Shown piece by piece: positions 12,828-20,229 of a stretch of 64,000 bases of DNA. Under the pieces are notes generated by a model. It was not told where the DNA came from and made no database searches. It saw only the letters and a list, made by a program, of their open reading frames with translations. Every line of letters starts with the position of its first letter. Positions within the stretch are counted from its first letter, which is position 1. Source of the stretch: Candidatus Woesearchaeota archaeon (lineage in GTDB: Archaea > Nanobdellota > Nanobdellia > SCGC-AAA011-G17 > UBA489); assembly GCA_018655015.1 (NCBI GenBank), contig JABIKK010000013.1, positions 44,071 to 108,070 on the forward strand, written 5' to 3'. Both the position numbers and the translations under genes were made by a program.

Positions 12828-13244
12828 ATGATACTTGATGGAAAAAACTTAATCGCTGGAAGACTTGCAAGTTTCGCAGCAAAGCAAGCTTTATTTGGGA
12901 ACGATATTGAGATTATTAATTCAGAATTAGTTATGATTACTGGAAGTAAGAGTAACGTAATGGCAAAACAAAATGAAAGACAAGCAAGAGGTCATCCATA
13001 CAAAGGACCATTTGTTCCAAGAAGGGAAGATCTTTTACTAAGAAGAATGATTAGGGGAATGTTACCTTACAAACAATCAAGAGGAATGATCGCATTCAAA
13101 AAAGTAAAGTGTCATTTAGGAATTCCTGATGAACTAAAAGACAAGCCCACAACTGAAGTAAAGGGCGCAAACATCACAAAGACGCAAACTCTTAAATATA
13201 TTCGTTTAGCAGAGGTTAGTAAGCTAATTGGTAGAAAAAAATGA
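12828..13244 (+). CDS. rpl13: 50S ribosomal protein L13 (uL13)
   Basis: 'DGKNLIAGRLAS..AKQAL' N-terminus typical of L13. Confidence 0.9.
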   Translation: MILDGKNLIAGRLASFAAKQALFGNDIEIINSELVMITGSKSNVMAKQNERQARGHPYKGPFVPRREDLLLRRMIRGMLPYKQSRGMIAFKKVKCHLGIPDELKDKPTTEVKGANITKTQTLKYIRLAEVSKLIGRKK

Positions 13245-13642
13245 AAACAATAAACGTTTCCGGAAGTAGAAAAAAAGCAGTAGCTAGAGCAACAATTAAA
13301 GATGGAAAAGGAATAGTTAGAATTAACAAACAATCGATTGAAACAATTGAACCGGAAATATCAAGATTAAGATTACAAGAGCCTTTAGAAATAGCTAAGG
13401 ACTTCTCAAAGAAAGTAAACATTGACTTAAAGGTAGCAGGTGGAGGTTCACAAAGCCAAATAGAAGCTTGTAGGCTAGCCATTGCAAAGTCAATTTACGC
13501 ATACTCAAATAAAGACGCACAATTAAGAAAAGATTTCATAGATTACGATAGACACTTACTAATCGCAGATACTAGAAGAAATGAACCTCACAAACCTAAC
13601 GATTCAAAACCAAGGGCAAAGAGGCAATTCTCTAAGAGATAG
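13241..13642 (+). CDS. rps9: 30S ribosomal protein S9 (uS9)
   Basis: 'GSRKKAVARATIKDGKG' and C-terminal 'RRNEPHKPNDSKPRAKRQFSKR'. Confidence 0.9.
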   Translation: MKTINVSGSRKKAVARATIKDGKGIVRINKQSIETIEPEISRLRLQEPLEIAKDFSKKVNIDLKVAGGGSQSQIEACRLAIAKSIYAYSNKDAQLRKDFIDYDRHLLIADTRRNEPHKPNDSKPRAKRQFSKR

Positions 13643-13645
13643 AAA

Positions 13646-13843
13646 ATGATTATACCAATAAGATGTTTTTCATGCGGCAAACCAATTGCACAGCTATGGG
13701 AAGAGTATAAAACAAGAACAGAGAAAGGCGAAGAACCAAAGAAGGTTATGAAAGACGTGGGTTTAGAAAGATACTGCTGCAAAGCAATTTTCTTAGGTCA
13801 CATCGACTTAATAGACACAGTTGCTAAGTTTAAGAAAGCTTAA
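13646..13843 (+). CDS. rpoN: DNA-directed RNA polymerase subunit N (Rpo10)
   Basis: 'MIIPIRCFSCGKPI...YCC' zinc-binding signature of Rpb10/RpoN. Confidence 0.9.
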   Translation: MIIPIRCFSCGKPIAQLWEEYKTRTEKGEEPKKVMKDVGLERYCCKAIFLGHIDLIDTVAKFKKA

Positions 13844-13891
13844 GTTTAGAATTTTTTTAATAAAATTAAACCTCTTAGTTCAACCTATAAA

Positions 13892-14356
13892 TTAATCTTT
13901 TTTACAATAAACTACATTGGTATACGCAGGATCATGAACTGCCCATGGACCAGATCTCCAAGCCCCATCTGCCGTCCCAACTTCAGAGCTGGATTCGTCC
14001 TTCCATTCTAACTTAATTTTTGCAACCTTAACTGTCCCACTACAACAATCAGCACCAGTGCTATATGTGTGAACTCGGTATTCATTACTTCCTCCCACTA
14101 ATCCAACATTAGCCACATCATCACCACGGGGGAATCTTCCATCTAATTCAGTATACCTCGTCCAACCAGTAGGACAATCCGTATCAAACATAGCAACCAT
14201 CCCTGTAAAAAGTCCATCTAAGCCTTCAATTTGATCAGCAGTATGCCCATAATTATTAACGCCCTGACCTTGTACAAAAACTATAGTTCCAAAGGCTAAC
14301 ACTAAAATGATAAGAAGATACATATGCCTCTTTTGAACTGAAATGTTAATATTCAC
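13892..14356 (-). CDS. Small secreted protein, member 4 (diverged) of the conserved-leader family
   Basis: 'MNINISVQKRHMYLLIILVLAFGTIVFVQGQGVNNYGH' leader homologous to members 1-3, with an unrelated Cys-containing C-terminal domain. Inserted antisense between rpoN and the SprT-like gene. Confidence 0.65.
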   Translation of the reverse strand: MNINISVQKRHMYLLIILVLAFGTIVFVQGQGVNNYGHTADQIEGLDGLFTGMVAMFDTDCPTGWTRYTELDGRFPRGDDVANVGLVGGSNEYRVHTYSTGADCCSGTVKVAKIKLEWKDESSSEVGTADGAWRSGPWAVHDPAYTNVVYCKKD

Positions 14357-14435
14357 CTAAATCAGAAGGCAATAGGAAGTTTATAAATATTCCTTCACAT
14401 AAATCCTTTTAATCTCATTAGTAATATACTAAAAA

Positions 14436-14900
14436 ATGAGAGATGATACGTGGCTTGAGCAAAGATTTGATCAAATTTGGACATTATTCTTCCCAGATGT
14501 AGAAAAGAAGAACGTATCAATAAGGTGGAAAGGCAAGTGGAAAAACAAATTTGGACACATAACCACCACCAAAGATAAAAAAAGTGAGATAGTAATTAAC
14601 AAATTATTCAAAGATTTACAAGTACCCGAAGACGTAATAAAATTAACAATAGCACATGAAATAGTTCATTACTCCCACGGATTTCATTCACACCTACCAA
14701 GATTACACAAACATCCCCACAAAGGAGGGGTAGTTGAAAAAGATCTTAAAAAACGAGGATTCTCATACATGCTAAAAAAAGAAAAAGAATGGCAAAAAAA
14801 AGAATGGTTCAATTTATTCAAAGAACTAATGCCTCATAAAGTTCAACCAAGAACAAGAATAATAAAACAAAGGAAACCTTTCAGTTTCTTTAGACTCTAG
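14436..14900 (+). CDS. SprT-like zinc metallopeptidase (HExxH)
   Basis: 'KFGHITTT.....IVINKLF...IAHEIVHY' matches the SprT/Wss1-like fold motif. Confidence 0.6.
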   Translation: MRDDTWLEQRFDQIWTLFFPDVEKKNVSIRWKGKWKNKFGHITTTKDKKSEIVINKLFKDLQVPEDVIKLTIAHEIVHYSHGFHSHLPRLHKHPHKGGVVEKDLKKRGFSYMLKKEKEWQKKEWFNLFKELMPHKVQPRTRIIKQRKPFSFFRL

Positions 14901-15198
14901 GCTTTAATAACATACGTCTATAGTTCTTACATTTCGAACAAAACACAATTAACTTTCCATTTCTAGTCCTAACTTTAGAATTAACTCCTGAAGAAAGGTA
15001 TATCTTACATTTTCTACAATAATTTGATCTAAATTTCCTAGGAATTCTAACGCCCGCCTTAGCTACAAGTCTTAAAACAATCTTAACATATCTATGACTT
15101 CTCTCAGGGTGATTCTTAAACTCAGAAGAAGCCTCTGAAAACAAAGTATTAATTCTCTCCAGTGCAATTGATCTCACATTTCCTATTCGTTTAGCCAT
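14890..15198 (-). CDS. rnp4: RNase P protein component 4 (Rpp21/Rpr2)
   Basis: 'RSHRYVKIVLRLVAKAGVRIPRKFRSNYCRKCKIYL...VFCSKCKNY' is an Rpr2 zinc ribbon. Start placed at the internal Met (MAKRIG). Confidence 0.75.
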   Translation of the reverse strand: MAKRIGNVRSIALERINTLFSEASSEFKNHPERSHRYVKIVLRLVAKAGVRIPRKFRSNYCRKCKIYLSSGVNSKVRTRNGKLIVFCSKCKNYRRMLLKPRV

Positions 15199-15273
15199 AC
15201 AAAACCCAACATTTAACCATATAAATAACTTATTACAGAAAAGATTATAAATCCCCATTAAAGGTCAAGAATA

Positions 15274-15981
15274 ATGAAAAAGAGAAATAATCAAAAAAAG
15301 GTATATTTGATCATCGGAGCAGCGATAATTCTGATAATATTACTATTAGTATTAAATCAAACACCAGTTCGAGACTTTACATTCGAAGAAGGTTACAATG
15401 AAATAGTCCAACTAGATGAAAAATACGAAACAAGCTTCAAGACAGAAAGCATTCCAGACGAACTAATAAATTACAAAAATGTTGATCCTTTTGTTGAAGA
15501 CTTAACCGCCCTTAGGGAAGAAGTTGCACTTTCTGCAAATAAAAATCCAACCGAAGAAAAAGAAGCTCTACTCTTATTAATTGACGCAAGAACGCTGATG
15601 ATTTTATCAGAAAAAAGTTATACTAATGGAAAGTCCATTGGCCCAATGGGAATTGCAGACGATGAAGAAGGTTTTAGTTGTAGAGAAGCAGGATACTTAA
15701 TCAATGGGGCATATTACTTTAACAAAAGTTATGGTGCTGGAGTTGAGGCATACTTAGCATTAGACAAACTACTCGGTCACAATCAACAAACTCCTGGAGT
15801 TTGGGATTTAGTGGGTGTTAATGATGAGAAACCAAGGTTTTTCTATTCTAAATTAGGCGCAATAAAAATAACAGTTGCAAGAAATCTAATAGCACTTGAA
15901 GAATTTTGTTTAATTGACATGAGCCAGGGACTAATCTCCCCAGTAGATCCAGAAAATTATATTCTTATAGACAATGTTTAA
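15274..15981 (+). CDS. Hypothetical signal-anchored secreted protein
   Basis: Basic N-terminus followed by a hydrophobic stretch (LIIGAAIILIILLLVL). No recognisable domain. Confidence 0.45.
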   Translation: MKKRNNQKKVYLIIGAAIILIILLLVLNQTPVRDFTFEEGYNEIVQLDEKYETSFKTESIPDELINYKNVDPFVEDLTALREEVALSANKNPTEEKEALLLLIDARTLMILSEKSYTNGKSIGPMGIADDEEGFSCREAGYLINGAYYFNKSYGAGVEAYLALDKLLGHNQQTPGVWDLVGVNDEKPRFFYSKLGAIKITVARNLIALEEFCLIDMSQGLISPVDPENYILIDNV

Positions 15982-16051
15982 AAAGCAACAAGAAAAAGAC
16001 TTAAATATCCCTTGTACCACTTGAGAGGGTTAACAATCTGGAGGCTTTAAT

Positions 16052-16249
16052 ATGGAATATAAAGACGAAAAAGGGAATACACTATACGGTTTTTCACAAG
16101 AAAGCCTAGAGAAAACAAACAAACAGATCACAGAAACAAATAAGCTAATTCAGGTTCTAATCATTCTAATTCTAATGATTCTACTCCTAGGAATAGGGTT
16201 TGCAGGATGGCTTAAAATGAATAGTATCTTTGATTTATTGATAAGATAA
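16052..16249 (+). CDS. Small hypothetical membrane protein
   Basis: 65 aa with one TM helix (LIQVLIILILMILLLGIGFAGWL). Confidence 0.3.
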   Translation: MEYKDEKGNTLYGFSQESLEKTNKQITETNKLIQVLIILILMILLLGIGFAGWLKMNSIFDLLIR

Positions 16250-16261
16250 GGCAAGCCAAAA

Positions 16262-16274
16262 CTCTTATAAATCG
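16262..16274 (+). promoter_or_regulatory. TATA box (CTTATAAATCG) for 5S rRNA
   Basis: Lies ~25 nt upstream of the inferred 5S 5' end and shares TTATAAATCGTT with the L18e promoter. Confidence 0.45.
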
Positions 16275-16293
16275 TTTAAATCATAAAATTATT

Positions 16294-16410
16294 GAGGACG
16301 ACCATGGCAGCTTGGTTCCACCTGTTCCCATTCCGAACACAGCAAGTTAAGCAAGCTCACGTTCCAAGTTGTACTGCACTTTGTTGTGGGAACCTTGGTT
16401 AGTTGTCCCT
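16294..16410 (+). rRNA. 5S ribosomal RNA (stand-alone, not linked to 16S/23S)
   Basis: Contains the universal 5S core 'CCCATTCCGAACACAGCAAGTTAAGC' and '...GTACTGCAC...GGGAAC'. Terminal helix GGACGAC/GTTGTCC. Confidence 0.85.
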
Positions 16411-17109
16411 TTTATTTTCTAATTTATTTAACAAATCCGCAAATTTAACAGGATTTTTAGAGGGAGTTGCATTGTAACTTTCAACCATCAAATCAAGAAT
16501 ATATTGTTTCATAGGATGTGTTAGAGGAACGTACTTTCTAAAGAGGAAAATATTTCTTCTTCCTGTAATTCCTAAAACCCAGGTGTCATCTTTCAGTCTA
16601 TTGTTCCTCCTCAAACGATTACATGAAATGCCTAGAGAAAAAAGAATTTCACCAATCTCCTTCAAAATTCCATAAGAATTAGAATAAAAATTTACATTCC
16701 TCTTCCATGCATTTTCAGACAGACTGAATCTTAGTCCAACACAACCTTCATCATCGAAAAAAGAACCAATAAATGCAAGCTTAATACCAATGTTAGCTTC
16801 TAGAACTTTTTTTGGAATCTTTATTTTATTACATCCAAACGATTCAAGATAATTAAAAAAAAACTCAATGAGCGCCCTTCTCTGAAACTGCACAAAGGAT
16901 GTACCTGAGTTGACCGTGCCATAAGTAAGGTGAATTTCTCCAAAAATTTCAATAAGATCCTTTTCGAATTGACTAAGCAAAGCCTTACAAGTATTGTTGT
17001 ACCTTGCATATTTAGGACTAATGTGGCCATCTCCACAAAGTTTAGCCAAACATCTTGCAAGAGCGACGTTCATCATAGCGTAATAATGAAAACATGGAAG
17101 ATAAAACAA
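16399..17109 (-). CDS. Free-standing double-motif LAGLIDADG homing endonuclease
   Basis: Two LAGLIDADG-type motifs, 'LAKLCGDGHIS' and 'IGSFFDDEGCV', at the spacing expected for a monomeric two-domain enzyme. The stop overlaps the 3' end of the 5S rRNA antisense. True start is probably M12/M13 (~17076). Confidence 0.75.
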   Translation of the reverse strand: MFYLPCFHYYAMMNVALARCLAKLCGDGHISPKYARYNNTCKALLSQFEKDLIEIFGEIHLTYGTVNSGTSFVQFQRRALIEFFFNYLESFGCNKIKIPKKVLEANIGIKLAFIGSFFDDEGCVGLRFSLSENAWKRNVNFYSNSYGILKEIGEILFSLGISCNRLRRNNRLKDDTWVLGITGRRNIFLFRKYVPLTHPMKQYILDLMVESYNATPSKNPVKFADLLNKLENKRDN

Positions 17110-17139
17110 TCTAAACAGCTAAGTAAGTGCAGTAAGTAG

Positions 17140-17508
17140 TTAAGACCAAATATTCAAGAATACGCCCCAGTAATGAACAATAACATAAAGCCAGATAATA
17201 TAGGCTACAACAGCAGAAATCAAAACAACTAGAACAGTATTTACAATCTCATTCTTTCTCCTTTTCACTTGATCAATAGTACATATTTTCTTCTTCCTAA
17301 AATAAATAATCAGTGATATTGTTAATAAAATCAAACCAAGTAACCTAAATATCCATTTATACTGACCATATAAGACATCTGTCAATGAGGCCGCATAACT
17401 AACAGTTCCAAAACCAAATAGAAGAAGTATTATCGGTGATAAACAACAAAGTGATGCAAATAAAACTGGAATTCCAGTTATCTTAAGTAATTCTTTTATA
17501 CTAACCAT
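17140..17508 (-). CDS. Hypothetical integral membrane protein (3 TM)
   Basis: Hydrophobicity pattern only. Confidence 0.4.
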   Translation of the reverse strand: MVSIKELLKITGIPVLFASLCCLSPIILLLFGFGTVSYAASLTDVLYGQYKWIFRLLGLILLTISLIIYFRKKKICTIDQVKRRKNEIVNTVLVVLISAVVAYIIWLYVIVHYWGVFLNIWS

Positions 17509-17853
17509 TCAAATCATCTTCAGTCCGCCAGTCACGGTATCAATTTTTTCCACTATATCTGGTCCGATTGCACAGCAAGTAGTTGTACTAGTGTCAAAAA
17601 AAGTTTTACCTGCATCTGTAATTATAGCAGTTTTTATTTTCTGCGCCCTTGCTTTCTTTAAGTAATATCTTAAATCAACTTCGTCAACAACTTTCAGAAC
17701 AACTTTCATCATCCCTTCTCGTCTCCAAGAATTAACTTTATCACTGCTTGAACCAAGAACAGCTTCAACACTAGCGTGTGCAACTTGCACAGCCAACTTG
17801 CCCTTAGGCATTTTTAAATCAGATCTAACCAATATAACTTGTTTAAAGCTCAT
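17509..17853 (-). CDS. pth2: Peptidyl-tRNA hydrolase, archaeal type (Pth2)
   Basis: 'ILVRSDLKMPKGKLAVQVAHASV' is the canonical PTH2 N-terminus. Confidence 0.85.
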   Translation of the reverse strand: MSFKQVILVRSDLKMPKGKLAVQVAHASVEAVLGSSSDKVNSWRREGMMKVVLKVVDEVDLRYYLKKARAQKIKTAIITDAGKTFFDTSTTTCCAIGPDIVEKIDTVTGGLKMI

Positions 17854-18248
17854 ATAAACTTCACCAAACCCTTAAGCTTAAGTTTGACCCTCTTACCAAA
17901 TCCATCTTTACCTTTTTTTGGATGAAATTTCTCTTGTTTCTGTCCTTCTAAATGGAACTTGTGTTCAATTGCAGTCATCAGCTTCTTCATAACAGAATTA
18001 ACATTTTTTCTTAAATCCCAACCCTCAACTTCAGAAGTTAAAGTTTCTTTTCCAAAATTAAGATGCGCCCTAAAACTATATCTCACCTTACTTCCCACTT
18101 CATGAACTTTCACATGGAATTTTAAATTATTCTTTGCACCAAATCTACGAATATCAGAGTTGTATTTTGAAACAACCTTTTTCAACCTTTCACGATCTAT
18201 CCCATCTAAAGAATTTAGTCCGACATAACTTACAGCCATTATAATCAC
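17850..18248 (-). CDS. Hypothetical protein, possible ribosome hibernation factor (HPF/RaiA)-like
   Basis: 'HVKVHEVGSKVRYSFRAHLNFGKETLTSEVEGWDLRKNVNSVMKKLMTAIE' resembles the beta-alpha-beta-beta-beta-alpha pattern of S30EA/HPF proteins. Weak call. Confidence 0.3.
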   Translation of the reverse strand: MIIMAVSYVGLNSLDGIDRERLKKVVSKYNSDIRRFGAKNNLKFHVKVHEVGSKVRYSFRAHLNFGKETLTSEVEGWDLRKNVNSVMKKLMTAIEHKFHLEGQKQEKFHPKKGKDGFGKRVKLKLKGLVKFI

Positions 18249-18278
18249 CCCAGTTTTAAAAGATTAAATACTTATCGT

Positions 18279-18770
18279 TTAAGTTCCAAAGTATTCATCT
18301 ATGATTTTTCTATGTTGAAAACCAATCTTAAGATCGGTCAATTCATCAAGTCCAAACCATTTAATATCTAATATCTCTCCTTCTTCCGCATTTTCGATAG
18401 TAGGTTCACCCTTATGCTCCCCAGAAAACACAGAAGTATACGCGCAAAAACCAATTTCTTCAAAAAATTCTTCATAACTACCAAAATATTTAGGCTTAAA
18501 ATCCAAACCGGCCTCTTCCCTCACTTCCCTTACAACTGTCTTCTCTTCAGTCTCACCTTCTTCAATGTGGCCTCCAGGCAAAGCCCAGGTATTTCTAAAG
18601 GGGAAATGTCCCCTCTTTATCAGTAAAACCTTTCCATCTTTAACCAACACAGCATTAACTACCTTATCTCTTCTCAAAGCAGTTTCCTCTTCAGAATTCT
18701 CTTCTCTAAACTTCTTCAAATCCTCTTCAGTAGTATCTTCTTGTATCTTTATTTTATTAATATCCATCAT
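18279..18770 (-). CDS. NUDIX hydrolase
   Basis: Nudix box 'GGHIEEGETEEKTVVREVREEAGL'. Confidence 0.85.
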   Translation of the reverse strand: MMDINKIKIQEDTTEEDLKKFREENSEEETALRRDKVVNAVLVKDGKVLLIKRGHFPFRNTWALPGGHIEEGETEEKTVVREVREEAGLDFKPKYFGSYEEFFEEIGFCAYTSVFSGEHKGEPTIENAEEGEILDIKWFGLDELTDLKIGFQHRKIIDEYFGT

Positions 18771-19393
18771 TTGAACACTTCTCCAGTTTCACTATACCAA
18801 AAGTAAAGATCTAATTCATCCATGCTAATGCCTAAATTCATACAATATAACTTAAATTTTTCTTCTATTAAAAGATATTCATTCTTTGTAAGTCCTTTGG
18901 AAACCTCATCAATTACTTCAAAATTTCTTAAATTCCTTAAAATATGTCTATCCAATATTGCAAGATCTCTAAATCCTACATTCCTTAAGAAGTGACTCGC
19001 CTCCTTGAGACCAAGACCCCTTACATTCTTTACAAGCCATTCCCTTACTTCAACGGAGTTGATAGATTTATCACTTAAGTCAAAACTCTCCCAGAGGGTA
19101 TTAAACAAATCTTTCAGTTCACAAACATACTTCGTTTTATTATTATGAAATCTAGTTTTTGTCTTTAGAATATTTCTAATGTCTTCAGAATCAACAGTGG
19201 AATTAAATAAATCCAAAGACTTTACTCCTTCAATAGCTTCAGCACACCTTTTAGCATTACTTTGGGGAGTCAATAAACAAAAACAAAGTTCATAAAAAAT
19301 ATCTTCTTTATCATTAATTTTAGAAAACGTATCTAATCTATCTAAAACTACAGATTTTATTTCAGAATATCCTTCCACAACAGAAGAATTCAT
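18767..19393 (-). CDS. ogg: N-glycosylase/DNA lyase (archaeal Ogg-type, HhH-GPD)
   Basis: 'GLGLKEASHFLRNVGFRDLAILDRHI' is a helix-hairpin-helix-GPD motif with a catalytic-Lys context. Confidence 0.7.
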   Translation of the reverse strand: MNSSVVEGYSEIKSVVLDRLDTFSKINDKEDIFYELCFCLLTPQSNAKRCAEAIEGVKSLDLFNSTVDSEDIRNILKTKTRFHNNKTKYVCELKDLFNTLWESFDLSDKSINSVEVREWLVKNVRGLGLKEASHFLRNVGFRDLAILDRHILRNLRNFEVIDEVSKGLTKNEYLLIEEKFKLYCMNLGISMDELDLYFWYSETGEVFK

Positions 19394-20229
19394 TTCATAT
19401 GTATCTCCACTACATCATCATCTGCTAGAACATGATCCAAACCAACAGTTTGCCCTTTAAACTTAGCACTCTTCCCATAAACTCTAGCATACTTAAAACT
19501 CTTAAGAAAATCCTTATGAACTTTTTTAGCAACATCTCTTAATGTTGAGTCCTTTGCAAAAGCTACAGGGGGAAGATCTTTTTCTCTCCCAGGTTGTTTA
19601 GTATAAACTTTAATTATTCCCAACTTGCGCCAAAGATCATCTTTAAATTTCTTAACATCTTGATCATTGTATATCGCCCTCTCAGTTACAACTTCAGATA
19701 ATTCTTTATCCAAAAAACCCTTGTCTTTAACATCCCTAAACAAAAAAACCATAAGATCTGCCTGCTTTAATATCCCTTTGTAAGTGGGGCCCATAACACT
19801 GTCTTCAAAGTTTTCAACAATGGCTGGAATCTCAACAATCTGAATTTTTATTCCATGATAATCCATTACTCCAATTTCTGGTTTCTTAGTTGTAAATTTA
19901 TAATCGGCAACCTCGACATTAGTTCCAGTTAGATCATTCAATAACTTGCTTTTACCAGAATTAGTTTTTCCCACAAGACATATCTGCGCAGCACCTTCCT
20001 TTTTTATCGTTGGAGAGTAACCCCTCCCACTAGATTTACTTTGTTTTTCAATAGTAGTCTTTAGTTTAGATATTCTTTCCTTAATAGAAGCTAACAATTT
20101 TTCACTAGATTTATGCTTAGGTGCAGTTTTGAGCATCTTCTTAAGAGCATTCAGTTTCTCATTGGGACCATCGGCATCCCTATACTCTTCTTCAGATCTC
20201 TGAAAATCAAAACCAGGATTAGTTGCCAT
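19390..20229 (-). CDS. Obg/DRG-like GTP-binding protein with C-terminal TGS domain (G3/G4 motifs degenerate)
   Basis: P-loop 'GKTNSGKS'. C-terminal TGS-like 'VYTKQPG...GQTVGLDHVLADDDVVEI'. No clear DxxG/NKxD. Confidence 0.55.
   Translation of the reverse strand: MATNPGFDFQRSEEEYRDADGPNEKLNALKKMLKTAPKHKSSEKLLASIKERISKLKTTIEKQSKSSGRGYSPTIKKEGAAQICLVGKTNSGKSKLLNDLTGTNVEVADYKFTTKKPEIGVMDYHGIKIQIVEIPAIVENFEDSVMGPTYKGILKQADLMVFLFRDVKDKGFLDKELSEVVTERAIYNDQDVKKFKDDLWRKLGIIKVYTKQPGREKDLPPVAFAKDSTLRDVAKKVHKDFLKSFKYARVYGKSAKFKGQTVGLDHVLADDDVVEIHMK

What the first reader, a model, noticed from the sequence alone, without database searches (positions are those of the whole stretch)
16294..17109. Free-standing LAGLIDADG homing endonuclease abutting the 5S rRNA gene in antisense
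A double-motif LAGLIDADG enzyme (LAKLCGDGHIS / IGSFFDDEGCV) is encoded tail-to-tail with the 5S rRNA so that its stop codon lies inside the last ~10 nt of the 5S gene. Archaeal LAGLIDADG enzymes are normally intron- or intein-borne. A free-standing copy glued to a conserved RNA gene suggests either an intron-derived remnant or a free-standing endonuclease that targets HE-less alleles of the adjacent RNA gene (collateral homing).
Basis: partly seen in the sequence, partly recalled or inferred. Interest (0 to 1): 0.55.

Follow-up and report, generated by a model that had tools for sequence, protein, structure and literature searches.

The report
Selfish nuclease gene targeting 5S rRNA
A small archaeal gene for a DNA-cutting "homing" enzyme sits tail-to-tail against the 5S ribosomal RNA gene; comparison with about 30 relatives indicates it is a mobile selfish element that most likely cuts the middle of 5S genes lacking it, and in relatives it travels with what look like tiny, previously unreported introns in 5S rRNA.

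Summary
There is a 5S rRNA gene at 16294-16411 (+). An intact 224-aa double-motif LAGLIDADG endonuclease gene lies at 16399-17073 (-), and its stop codon is 11-13 nt inside the 5S 3' end.

The adjacency is not chance. All 31 distinct loci that encode this protein family (Woesearchaeota, Pacearchaeota and Nanoarchaeia MAGs) have a 5S gene at the endonuclease gene's 3' end.

The gene is sporadic. Only 5 of 44 similar 5S loci carry it. Syntenic close relatives of the window (L087, L093) have 5S next to the same neighbours without it.

In relatives, a displaced copy of the 5S 3' part maps the insertion point to the GA|AGTTAAGC junction (nt 50/51). In those loci the working 5S carries a 24-31 nt insert at that point. 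The insert has bulge-helix-bulge geometry, and its predicted excision restores the normal 5S sequence.

The window and its sister L001 have no such insert. They have one extra nucleotide at exactly that point, and all endonuclease-less syntenic relatives lack it.

Best reading: a free-standing homing endonuclease aimed at 5S rDNA. This is an archaeal analogue of phage "collaborative homing", and here immunity comes from a 1-nt insertion. Cleavage and splicing are inferred, not shown.

The parts
16294..16411 (+). 5S rRNA gene, 118 nt, transcribed on its own and not linked to 16S/23S within the 64-kb window
   Evidence: Rfam RF00001 69 bits; own covariance model 124.5 bits
16265..16272 (+). TTATAAAT, a candidate archaeal TATA box about 25 nt upstream of the 5S start
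   Evidence: Read from the sequence. Similar A/T boxes sit upstream of 5S in relatives. This is inference, not a test.
16333..16352 (+). Predicted endonuclease target and insertion site inside 5S (CCGAACACAG-C-AAGTTAAGC). C at 16343 (5S nt 50) is the extra nucleotide, read here as the immunity change.
   Evidence: The extra nucleotide is present in the window (C) and in L001 (T). It is absent in the syntenic endonuclease-less relatives L087/88, L089-92 and L093. In relatives the same point carries the 24-31 nt insert and marks the boundary of the displaced 3' copy.
16399..17073 (-). Free-standing single-chain LAGLIDADG homing endonuclease gene, 224 aa, ATG at 17073 (alternative starts: ATG 17076, TTG 17109)
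   Evidence: dN/dS 0.10 against L001.
16399..16411 (.). 13-nt overlap: the stop codon and the last three to four endonuclease codons (K-R-D-N-stop) are antisense to the 3' strand of 5S helix I
   Evidence: The same overlap is in L001. Other family members stop 2-25 nt before 5S or read through it.
17020..17058 (-). LAGLIDADG motif 1 (ARCLAKLCGDGHI); catalytic Asp15 at 17029-17031
   Evidence: G14-D15-G16 are invariant in the 12-member alignment A1; codon checked
16738..16776 (-). LAGLIDADG motif 2 (LAFIGSFFDDEGC); catalytic Glu109 at 16747-16749
   Evidence: D107-D108-E109-G110 are invariant; codon checked
17074..17139 (-). 66-nt upstream region of the endonuclease gene, up to the stop codon of the MerT-like gene. 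It holds a TTTTAT box and is the right-hand end of the roughly 730-nt segment that endonuclease-less relatives lack.
   Evidence: In L093 and L087 the 5S 3' end is followed by 8-12 nt of T-rich spacer and then TTAAGACCAA, which is window 17140-17149. The promoter role is inference.

Best explanation
The ORF is an active, free-standing, single-chain LAGLIDADG homing endonuclease. Its family is specialised on the 5S rRNA gene of DPANN archaea (Woesearchaeota, Pacearchaeota).

Inferred mechanism:
1. The enzyme recognises the highly conserved loop C / helix III / loop B stretch of uninterrupted 5S rDNA (...CGAACNCNGA|AGTTAAGC...) and cuts at or near the bar (nt 50/51).
2. The break is repaired from an endonuclease-bearing genome. 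This copies a cassette made of the 5S 3' part plus the endonuclease gene, which is packed antisense against the 5S 3' end.
3. Genomes that carry the endonuclease protect their own 5S by interrupting the site. Many relatives use a 24-31 nt ORF-less bulge-helix-bulge insert, probably spliced out by the tRNA-splicing endonuclease. The window and its sister genome use a single extra nucleotide (C at 16343).

The stop-codon overlap with 5S is a by-product of this tight packing.

Shown here: family membership and fold, invariant catalytic residues, constant linkage to 5S, sporadic distribution, empty syntenic sites, the insertion point, the geometry and covariation of the insert, and the link between the extra nucleotide and the endonuclease.

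Inferred: cleavage at that site, immunity, splicing and ongoing mobility.
For: 1. Identity. Pfam LAGLIDADG_3 scores above its cut-off. GDG and DDEG are invariant. The AlphaFold model has pLDDT 93.5, and its best PDB matches are intein and archaeal intron endonucleases.

2. Linkage to 5S. All contexts of the 12 database homologues have 5S at the endonuclease 3' end. So do 25 of 26 GTDB genome loci; the 26th is cut by a contig end.

3. Sporadic distribution. Only 5 of 44 loci found with a 5S pattern carry the gene. In a tree of a flanking host gene, bearers and non-bearers are interleaved.

4. Degenerate copies exist. L040 has a nonsense codon at an invariant Trp, and L042 has lost motif 1 and is frameshifted.

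5. Insertion point. L047 is colinear with the endonuclease-less L049 through the flanking gene and the last 64 nt of 5S. Homology then breaks at 5S nt ~52, followed by 845 nt that hold the endonuclease gene, followed by a complete 5S. Displaced 3' copies of 17-67 nt occur in 10 GTDB/homologue loci, plus L045 and L068 in the metagenome set. All end at the 5S 3' terminus and are followed by the native flank. In L039 the copy starts exactly at AGTTAAGC.

6. Insert at the same point. In 19 of 19 long 5S genes the insert forms a 4-bp helix with the 3' strand of helix III, in three covarying versions. It also has a 3-nt bulge and an inner hairpin with compensatory changes at all 7 pairs. In 16 of 19, cutting after the second bulge nucleotide gives exactly the canonical 5S.

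7. This window. The syntenic relatives L087/88 and L093 have MerT-like gene, 5S and orf65 with no endonuclease. The window and L001 have one extra nucleotide at the site, and all five endonuclease-less syntenic sequences do not. The 5S of the window and L001 is 10-15% different from theirs although the flanks are equidistant.

8. The gene is under purifying selection: dN/dS 0.10.
Against: - No biochemical evidence for cleavage or for the target site.
- The window has neither the insert nor a displaced 5S copy, so the cassette model is carried over from relatives.
- Four endonuclease-bearing loci (L014, L026, L034, and L042, whose endonuclease is degenerate) have canonical spacing at the site, so insertion cannot be the only route to immunity.
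- One endonuclease-less locus (L081) also has an extra nucleotide there.
- Between the window and L001 the gene has dS similar to its neighbours (1.16) and dN/dS 0.10. That means long vertical retention under selection, which a purely parasitic element fixed in a lineage is not expected to show unless homing continues.
- The link between the extra nucleotide and the endonuclease rests on few independent lineages.
- The bulge-helix-bulge motif lacks a clear outer helix (relaxed HBh' type).
Confidence: 0.7

Rival explanations
1. A domesticated LAGLIDADG protein kept by the host for a job at the 5S locus, such as recombination or repair of 5S rDNA, or control of 5S transcription or termination. 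On this view it is no longer a mobile parasite.
For: dN/dS is 0.10, and dS is similar to the neighbouring housekeeping genes between the window and L001. The gene stays glued to 5S even where the 5S gene alone has been inverted. Many residue blocks are invariant across a family only 38-50% identical overall.
Against: Most close relatives lack it, including syntenic ones. Pseudogenised copies exist. Both catalytic acids are invariant, whereas LAGLIDADG-derived regulators such as WhiA have, from my own knowledge of that family, lost theirs (not checked here). At the same spot other genomes carry unrelated cargo: a MazE/PIN pair in L048 and an EEP-family gene in L089.
Confidence: 0.12
2. A remnant of an intron-encoded endonuclease. 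The ORF once lay inside a 5S intron, and rearrangement left it outside the gene.
For: In relatives a short bulge-helix-bulge insert sits at the mapped insertion point. Structural neighbours include the archaeal rRNA-intron enzymes I-DmoI and I-Tsp061I.
Against: In all 31 loci the ORF lies outside the insert, downstream of the whole 5S and antisense to it. The junction next to the displaced 3' copy (..TTATATTA|AGTTAAGC) has no bulge-helix-bulge elements. The nearest sequence relatives are intein endonuclease domains, not intron ORFs.
Confidence: 0.08
3. A homing endonuclease whose real target is elsewhere, for example the 5S 3' end/terminator junction or another gene. On this view 5S is only a tolerated landing place.
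For: The gene always abuts a 5S end, not its middle. Four bearers have canonical mid-gene spacing.
Against: The displaced copies begin at nt ~51 and run to the 5S 3' end with the native flank attached. A target at the 3' end/flank junction would therefore be rebuilt intact in bearers. Both the insert and the extra nucleotide sit at the mid-gene point. In five loci the gene abuts the 5' end of 5S instead.
Confidence: 0.07

Closest known systems
[quoted passage not shown]
   Same: The endonuclease gene lies outside the target gene but immediately next to it. An ORF-less intervening sequence sits at the enzyme's target site and would protect the host allele. Intervening sequence, downstream exon and endonuclease gene would move together.
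   Different: This is an archaeal chromosome, not a phage. The enzyme is LAGLIDADG, not Endo VII-like. The target is 5S rRNA, not a protein gene. The insert is bulge-helix-bulge type (protein-spliced), not a group I ribozyme. The gene is antisense to its target. A displaced copy of the 3' exon is left behind. The window itself has no insert, only a 1-nt insertion. Cleavage is untested here.
Free-standing homing endonuclease genes in fungal mitochondria that lie between a gene (cob, atp6) and a partial C-terminal duplicate of it (PMC6279837)
   Same: The architecture is gene, then endonuclease ORF, then a displaced partial 3' copy of the gene, as in L022, L023, L027, L039, L045 and others.
   Different: The host gene here is a 120-nt RNA, not a protein gene, and the organism is an archaeon. 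In the window the displaced copy is absent.
Archaeal rRNA-intron LAGLIDADG enzymes I-DmoI and I-Tsp061I, and intein enzymes PI-PfuI and the TliVMA intein endonuclease
   Same: Same single-chain two-domain fold (Foldseek probability 1.0, TM about 0.7). Same pair of catalytic acids (Asp in motif 1, Glu in motif 2, as in I-DmoI, which I state from my own knowledge). A ribosomal RNA gene is the target.
   Different: Sequence identity is only 13-20%. The ORF is neither inside an intron nor in frame within a host protein. The target is 5S rather than 16S/23S.
Free-standing seg/mob endonucleases of phage T4 (intronless homing; PMC2790892, PMC2988022)
   Same: An optional gene between conserved genes. 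It spreads by cutting genomes that lack it, with co-conversion of flanking markers.
   Different: Those enzymes are GIY-YIG or HNH, and the setting is phage co-infection. No gene duplication or intron is involved in most cases.

Membership tests
LAGLIDADG homing endonuclease, single-chain (Pfam PF14528 LAGLIDADG_3) | Profile match above the curated threshold | tested here: met
   33.4 bits against a cut-off of 22.5, E=5.6e-8. The model matched only the second half of the protein.
LAGLIDADG homing endonuclease, single-chain (Pfam PF14528 LAGLIDADG_3) | Two LAGLIDADG motifs, each ending in an acidic catalytic residue | tested here: met
   D15 in ..LCGDG.. and E109 in ..FDDEG..; both invariant in 12 family members
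LAGLIDADG homing endonuclease, single-chain (Pfam PF14528 LAGLIDADG_3) | Two alpha-beta-beta-alpha-beta-beta-alpha domains forming a DNA-binding saddle | tested here: met
   AlphaFold pLDDT 93.5, pTM 0.91. Foldseek matches PI-PfuI, I-Tsp061I and I-DmoI at probability 1.0.
LAGLIDADG homing endonuclease, single-chain (Pfam PF14528 LAGLIDADG_3) | Site-specific double-strand cleavage of a long (14-40 bp) target | not testable with these tools
   Needs purified protein and 5S rDNA substrates
Mobile (homing) genetic element | Presence/absence polymorphism at the same locus among close relatives, with clean empty sites | tested here: met
   L087/88 and L093 against the window and L001. L049, L075 and L057 against L047 and L027. 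L059 against L045 and L068. Interleaving on the host-gene tree.
Mobile (homing) genetic element | Degenerate copies, as expected from the gain-decay-loss cycle | tested here: met
   L040 nonsense codon at the invariant Trp; L042 lacks motif 1 and is frameshifted
Collaborative homing (free-standing endonuclease plus ORF-less intron at its target site) | Endonuclease gene outside the target gene but adjacent to it | tested here: met
   31 of 31 distinct loci
Collaborative homing (free-standing endonuclease plus ORF-less intron at its target site) | An intervening sequence without an ORF interrupts the target site in bearer alleles | tested here: not met
   Not met in the window: there is no insert, only one extra nucleotide at the site. 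It is met in 17 bearer loci of relatives. The window is therefore not filed as a full member, only as working in a similar way.
Collaborative homing (free-standing endonuclease plus ORF-less intron at its target site) | The enzyme cuts intron-less alleles at the intron insertion site, and the intron blocks cutting | not testable with these tools
   Inferred only, from the position of the displaced 3' copies
Archaeal bulge-helix-bulge intron (applies to the insert in relatives' 5S genes) | A 4-bp helix flanked by two 3-nt bulges (3-4-3), with the cleavage sites in the bulges (PMC7714728, PMC3239211) | tested here: inconclusive
   The 4-bp helix is perfect in 19 of 19, the 5' bulge is 3 nt in 19 of 19, and the inner helix covaries. 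The 3' site has the right spacing in 16 of 19. No convincing outer helix is present, so this is the relaxed HBh' type, which according to PMC3239211 needs a broad-specificity endonuclease.
Archaeal bulge-helix-bulge intron (applies to the insert in relatives' 5S genes) | Excision restores the functional RNA sequence | tested here: met
   The predicted product ...ACAGA|AGTTAAGC equals the intron-less 5S in 16 of 19. The same holds for two other insert sites in 5S. The rule of cutting after the second bulge nucleotide is from my own knowledge of tRNA introns.
Archaeal bulge-helix-bulge intron (applies to the insert in relatives' 5S genes) | Actual splicing in vivo or by EndA in vitro | not testable with these tools
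   No transcript data available
Intron-encoded or intein-encoded endonuclease | ORF inside an intron, or in frame within a host protein with flanking Hint (splicing) domains | tested here: not met
   The 224-aa protein is entirely endonuclease fold. It has its own ATG, 66 nt after the upstream gene's stop. Pfam finds no Hint domain.
Mitochondrial-type free-standing endonuclease gene with partial duplication of the host gene | A displaced partial 3' copy of the host gene beyond the endonuclease ORF | tested here: not met
   None in the window or in L001. Present in relatives.

The most novel reading that the evidence does not exclude
DPANN archaea harbour an undescribed mobile module. It is a free-standing LAGLIDADG endonuclease that homes into the 5S rRNA gene together with an ORF-less bulge-helix-bulge mini-intron and a fresh copy of the 5S 3' exon. 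These would be the first introns reported in any 5S rRNA gene: three separate sites show the motif. It would also be an archaeal counterpart of phage collaborative homing, that is, the proposed intermediate stage before an endonuclease gene moves into an intron.
Probability: 0.5. Interest if true: 0.8.

Novelty: new variant of a known kind. Interest (0 to 1): 0.72.

Why it matters
Homing endonucleases are known to attack 16S and 23S rRNA genes from within introns. 5S rRNA has so far appeared free of them. A systematic survey of CPR bacteria found no insertion of 100 bp or more in 645 5S genes (PMC11270868). My full-text searches found no report of a 5S intron or of a 5S-targeting endonuclease.

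If the reading is right, three things follow.

1. Even a 120-nt RNA gene can be colonised. The element avoids disrupting it by carrying a spare 3' half of the gene and, in many lineages, a 24-31 nt spliceable insert.
2. It gives a natural archaeal example of the "free-standing endonuclease plus ORF-less intron" stage, which has been proposed as the route by which mobile introns form.
3. It explains why 5S genes of many Woesearchaeota score below Rfam's threshold (31-41 bits) and may be missed in genome annotation.

It also offers a compact LAGLIDADG scaffold with a defined, universally conserved candidate target.

Tried and rejected
- Chance adjacency: rejected, since the arrangement recurs in 31 of 31 loci.
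- Displaced 5S copy in the window or L001: searched with blastn-short and with the covariance model; none found.
- The 10-nt match TACTGCACTT upstream of the endonuclease gene (17126-17135) is inverted relative to its 5S copy (16372-16381) and only partly conserved in L001. I treat it as probable chance.
- A viral or plasmid vector: no relative in IMG/VR.
- Sequence search of the PDB gave only marginal hits; fold search was needed.
- Short tblastn 'hits' of P0003 and P0010 to endonuclease-less loci are artefacts. The C-terminal extensions of those proteins are antisense translations of 5S.
- I first judged the insert's bulges to be in the wrong orientation for a bulge-helix-bulge motif. Re-deriving the layout from tRNA intron numbering showed the orientation is correct. 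My first scripted check also mis-anchored six sequences, corrected.
- A large endonuclease-containing intron bounded by the displaced copy: rejected, because that junction has no splice-motif elements.
- The 670-nt gap beside 5S in L084 was checked for another endonuclease; it holds only an unrelated 106-aa ORF.
- Using differences between the two 3' copies to decide which is native gave mixed signals. L022 fits, while L027 and L039 are mosaic. I do not rely on it.
- Trees are neighbour-joining on short alignments and are used only for gross patterns.

Full report
**1. What is in the window**

Rfam places a 5S rRNA gene at 16294-16411 on the + strand (69 bits). A covariance model I built from nine related 5S genes agrees (124.5 bits).

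On the minus strand an ORF runs 16399-17109. The family alignment and the database entries start at the ATG at 17073, giving 224 aa. Its TAA stop (16399-16401) and last codons lie antisense within the 3' strand of 5S helix I, an overlap of 13 nt.

The protein matches Pfam LAGLIDADG_3 above threshold. It has both motifs with their acidic residues, D15 and E109, which are invariant in the family. It folds with high confidence (pLDDT 93.5) into the two-domain fold of I-DmoI, I-Tsp061I, PI-PfuI and the TliVMA intein endonuclease. There is no intein or intron around it. The organism is a Woesearchaeota archaeon, according to the names attached to identical or syntenic records.

**2. The adjacency is a property of the family**

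Only 12 clusters were found among 5.8 billion proteins. A profile search of 1.84 billion representatives found 26 hits at E<1e-30. The next tier is intein domains.

I fetched the contexts of these proteins and of 26 species-representative genomes, then searched them for 5S. Every locus with enough flank has a 5S gene at the endonuclease gene's 3' end, from overlapping to about 35 nt away. That makes 31 distinct loci in varied gene neighbourhoods.

In most loci the two genes are tail to tail. In five (L008/L030, L031, L032, L033, L036) 5S is on the same strand. Comparison with close relatives shows that 5S alone (5S plus or minus 8 nt) is inverted in place, with both flanks colinear.

**3. The gene is sporadic**

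A scan of metagenome contigs with a 21-nt 5S pattern returned 44 5S loci, and only five encode the endonuclease. Bearers and non-bearers are interleaved on a tree of a flanking host gene.

Two copies are degenerate. L040 has a stop at the invariant Trp and no start codon. L042 lacks motif 1 and is frameshifted.

**4. Where the element went in**

L047 (bearer) is colinear with L049 (non-bearer) through the flanking gene, a 5-nt spacer and the last 64 nt of 5S. Homology stops at 5S nt ~52. Then come 845 nt containing the endonuclease gene, and then a complete 5S.

Such displaced 3' copies, 17-67 nt long, lie upstream of the endonuclease start in ten GTDB/homologue loci, plus L045 and L068 in the metagenome set. 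They are always on the 5S strand and always end at the 5S 3' terminus. Where syntenic endonuclease-less alleles were available for comparison, the flank that follows matches the one they have after 5S.

In L039 the copy begins exactly at AGTTAAGC. In L023 it begins at AGTcAAGC.

The simplest reading is as follows. A break occurred at GA|AGTTAAGC. It was repaired by copying [insert + 5S 3' part + endonuclease gene + ~170-200 nt spacer] from a donor. The recipient's own 3' part was left stranded. This is the architecture known for free-standing endonuclease genes beside cob and atp6 in fungal mitochondria (PMC6279837).

**5. The insert at that point**

All 'long' 5S genes (142-176 nt) have 24-31 extra nucleotides exactly there. 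The features of the insert are:

- **Central helix.** In 19 of 19, the last four insert nucleotides before a 2-nt tail are perfectly complementary to the four nucleotides of the helix III 3' strand. They occur in three covarying versions: CACA/UGUG, CACG/CGUG and CUCG/CGAG.
- **5' bulge.** A 3-nt bulge (GA+U/A) follows on the 5' side.
- **Inner hairpin.** It shows compensatory changes at all 7 pairs: 88.6% of cells are paired against 16-59% when the partners are slid, and 0 of 500 shuffles reach the observed value.

This is the 4-bp helix with 3-nt bulges that defines the archaeal splicing motif (PMC7714728, PMC3239211), here of the relaxed type without a clear outer helix.

Cutting after the second nucleotide of each bulge is the tRNA rule, which I state from my own knowledge. 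It yields ...ACAGA|AGUUAAGC..., which is exactly the intron-less sequence, in 16 of 19.

Two further insert families in 5S, after CCCAU and after CCCGAA, obey the same geometry and also restore the canonical sequence. This raises my confidence that all three are spliced introns.

Two loci have the site-1 insert but no endonuclease (L048, L079). This is expected if the endonuclease gene is lost by recombination between the two 3' copies, or if repair copies only the insert.

**6. The window's own lineage**

The window and L001 (80% identical endonuclease, fully syntenic) have neither the insert nor a displaced copy.

Using the adjacent MerT-like gene as a probe, I found syntenic relatives without the endonuclease. 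In L087/L088 and L093 only ~170 nt lie between the MerT-like gene and orf65, and this stretch holds 5S. In L089-92 an EEP-family gene sits in the endonuclease's place.

The 5S sequences at the mapped insertion point compare as follows:

| Locus | Endonuclease | Sequence at the site |
|---|---|---|
| Window | present | ACAG-C-AAGTT |
| L001 | present | ACAG-T-AAGTT |
| Five syntenic relatives | absent | ACAG-AAGTT or ACGG-AAGTC |

So one extra nucleotide, at exactly the mapped insertion point, goes with the endonuclease. The same +1 is seen in seven further insert-less bearers, and in only one of about 35 non-bearers. A 1-bp change in spacing at the centre of a LAGLIDADG site should block cleavage. 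That is inference from the known two-half-site architecture of these enzymes.

In addition, the 5S of the window and L001 differs by 10-15% from all endonuclease-less relatives. Those relatives differ from each other by only 5% despite 24-29% protein divergence in their flanks, and the window, L001 and L093 are equidistant in their flanks. The bearer 5S allele therefore looks imported or co-converted.

**7. Selection**

Between the window and L001 the endonuclease gene has dN/dS 0.10 and dS 1.16, similar to its neighbours. The gene is functional and has been inherited vertically since that split. This is the main point in favour of a host-beneficial role. It could equally reflect continued homing in polymorphic populations.

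**8. Comparison with known systems**

The closest described mechanism is collaborative homing in cyanophage: F-CphI plus the ORF-less psbA intron (PMC6083498). The closest architecture is the mitochondrial free-standing endonuclease gene with a partial duplicate of its host gene (PMC6279837).

The differences are an archaeal host, a LAGLIDADG enzyme, a 5S rRNA target, a bulge-helix-bulge insert and an antisense arrangement.

The window is a member of the LAGLIDADG family and of this 5S-linked clade. It does not meet the 'intron present' criterion of collaborative homing, so I describe it as working in that manner with a point-insertion form of immunity.

I found no literature on 5S introns or 5S-targeting endonucleases. 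A CPR survey found no insertion of 100 bp or more in 5S.

**9. Verdict**

The mechanism is inferred from consistent comparative evidence, not demonstrated. Novelty: a new variant of a known kind, with a fair chance of revealing the first 5S rRNA introns.

Noticed in passing
L028:5677-5848, L048:4446-4620, L079:735-910 (site 2); L084:1239-1386, L056:1-146 (site 3): Two more 28-35 nt inserts in 5S, after CCCAU and after CCCGAA. Each has a perfect 4-bp helix, 3-nt bulges and an inner hairpin, and predicted excision restores the canonical 5S. L057 and L084 have nearly identical flanking genes but differ by the site-3 insert.
   Followed up: partly
L031:5636-5767 vs L035:5600-5731; L008:3657-3765 vs L037:2468-2579; L036 vs L038: The 5S gene alone (about 116-130 nt) is inverted in place between close relatives, while the endonuclease gene and the downstream flank stay colinear. 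On the endonuclease tree the two orientations are intermixed. The mechanism is unknown.
   Followed up: partly
L040:4983-5510; L042:4986-5790: Degenerate endonuclease copies. L040 has a stop codon replacing the invariant Trp (E*KRN) and no ATG. L042 has lost LAGLIDADG motif 1 and has a frameshifted, partly duplicated C-terminus.
   Followed up: yes
L012:3127-3954 (P0003), L014:2659-3423 (P0010), L066:11015-11851, L026:4992-5732: In some relatives the endonuclease ORF has lost its stop and reads through 5S in antisense, adding 20-50 spurious C-terminal residues. These tails produce false tblastn hits on any 5S gene.
   Followed up: yes
L048:3835-4424: In a genome with the site-1 insert but no endonuclease, the space between the flanking gene and the 5S 3' end holds a MazE-like antitoxin and a PIN-domain toxin.
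   Followed up: partly
L089:4340-5250 (also L090-L092): In syntenic relatives of the window, a 241-aa Exo_endo_phos family gene sits where the endonuclease is. It is flanked by a perfect 31-nt direct repeat made of the last 21 nt and stop of the MerT-like gene plus 8 nt of spacer. This is another insertion with a target duplication at the same hotspot.
   Followed up: partly
window 17126-17135 vs 16372-16381: A 10-nt inverted match (TACTGCACTT) between 5S helix IV and the region just upstream of the endonuclease gene. It is only partly conserved in L001 and is probably chance.
   Followed up: partly
window 12828-20229 and loci L004, L014, L052, L079, L008, L031-L037: 5S is not linked to 16S/23S in this 64-kb window. 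Across lineages it tends to lie near rpoN, an Rpr2-like RNase P subunit gene and a SprT-like gene, or near an NFACT_N gene.
   Followed up: no
L019, L026, L029 (GTDB records): Records titled Portnoybacteria or Methanosarcinales carry typical woesearchaeal 5S-endonuclease loci. L019 is identical to L018 over the matched region. This suggests mis-binned contigs.
   Followed up: no
L002:4691-4838, L012:3820-3962, L015:2266-2412, L016:1282-1426: Insert-bearing 5S genes score only 31-38 bits with Rfam RF00001, below the gathering score of 38. Standard annotation would miss them.
   Followed up: yes
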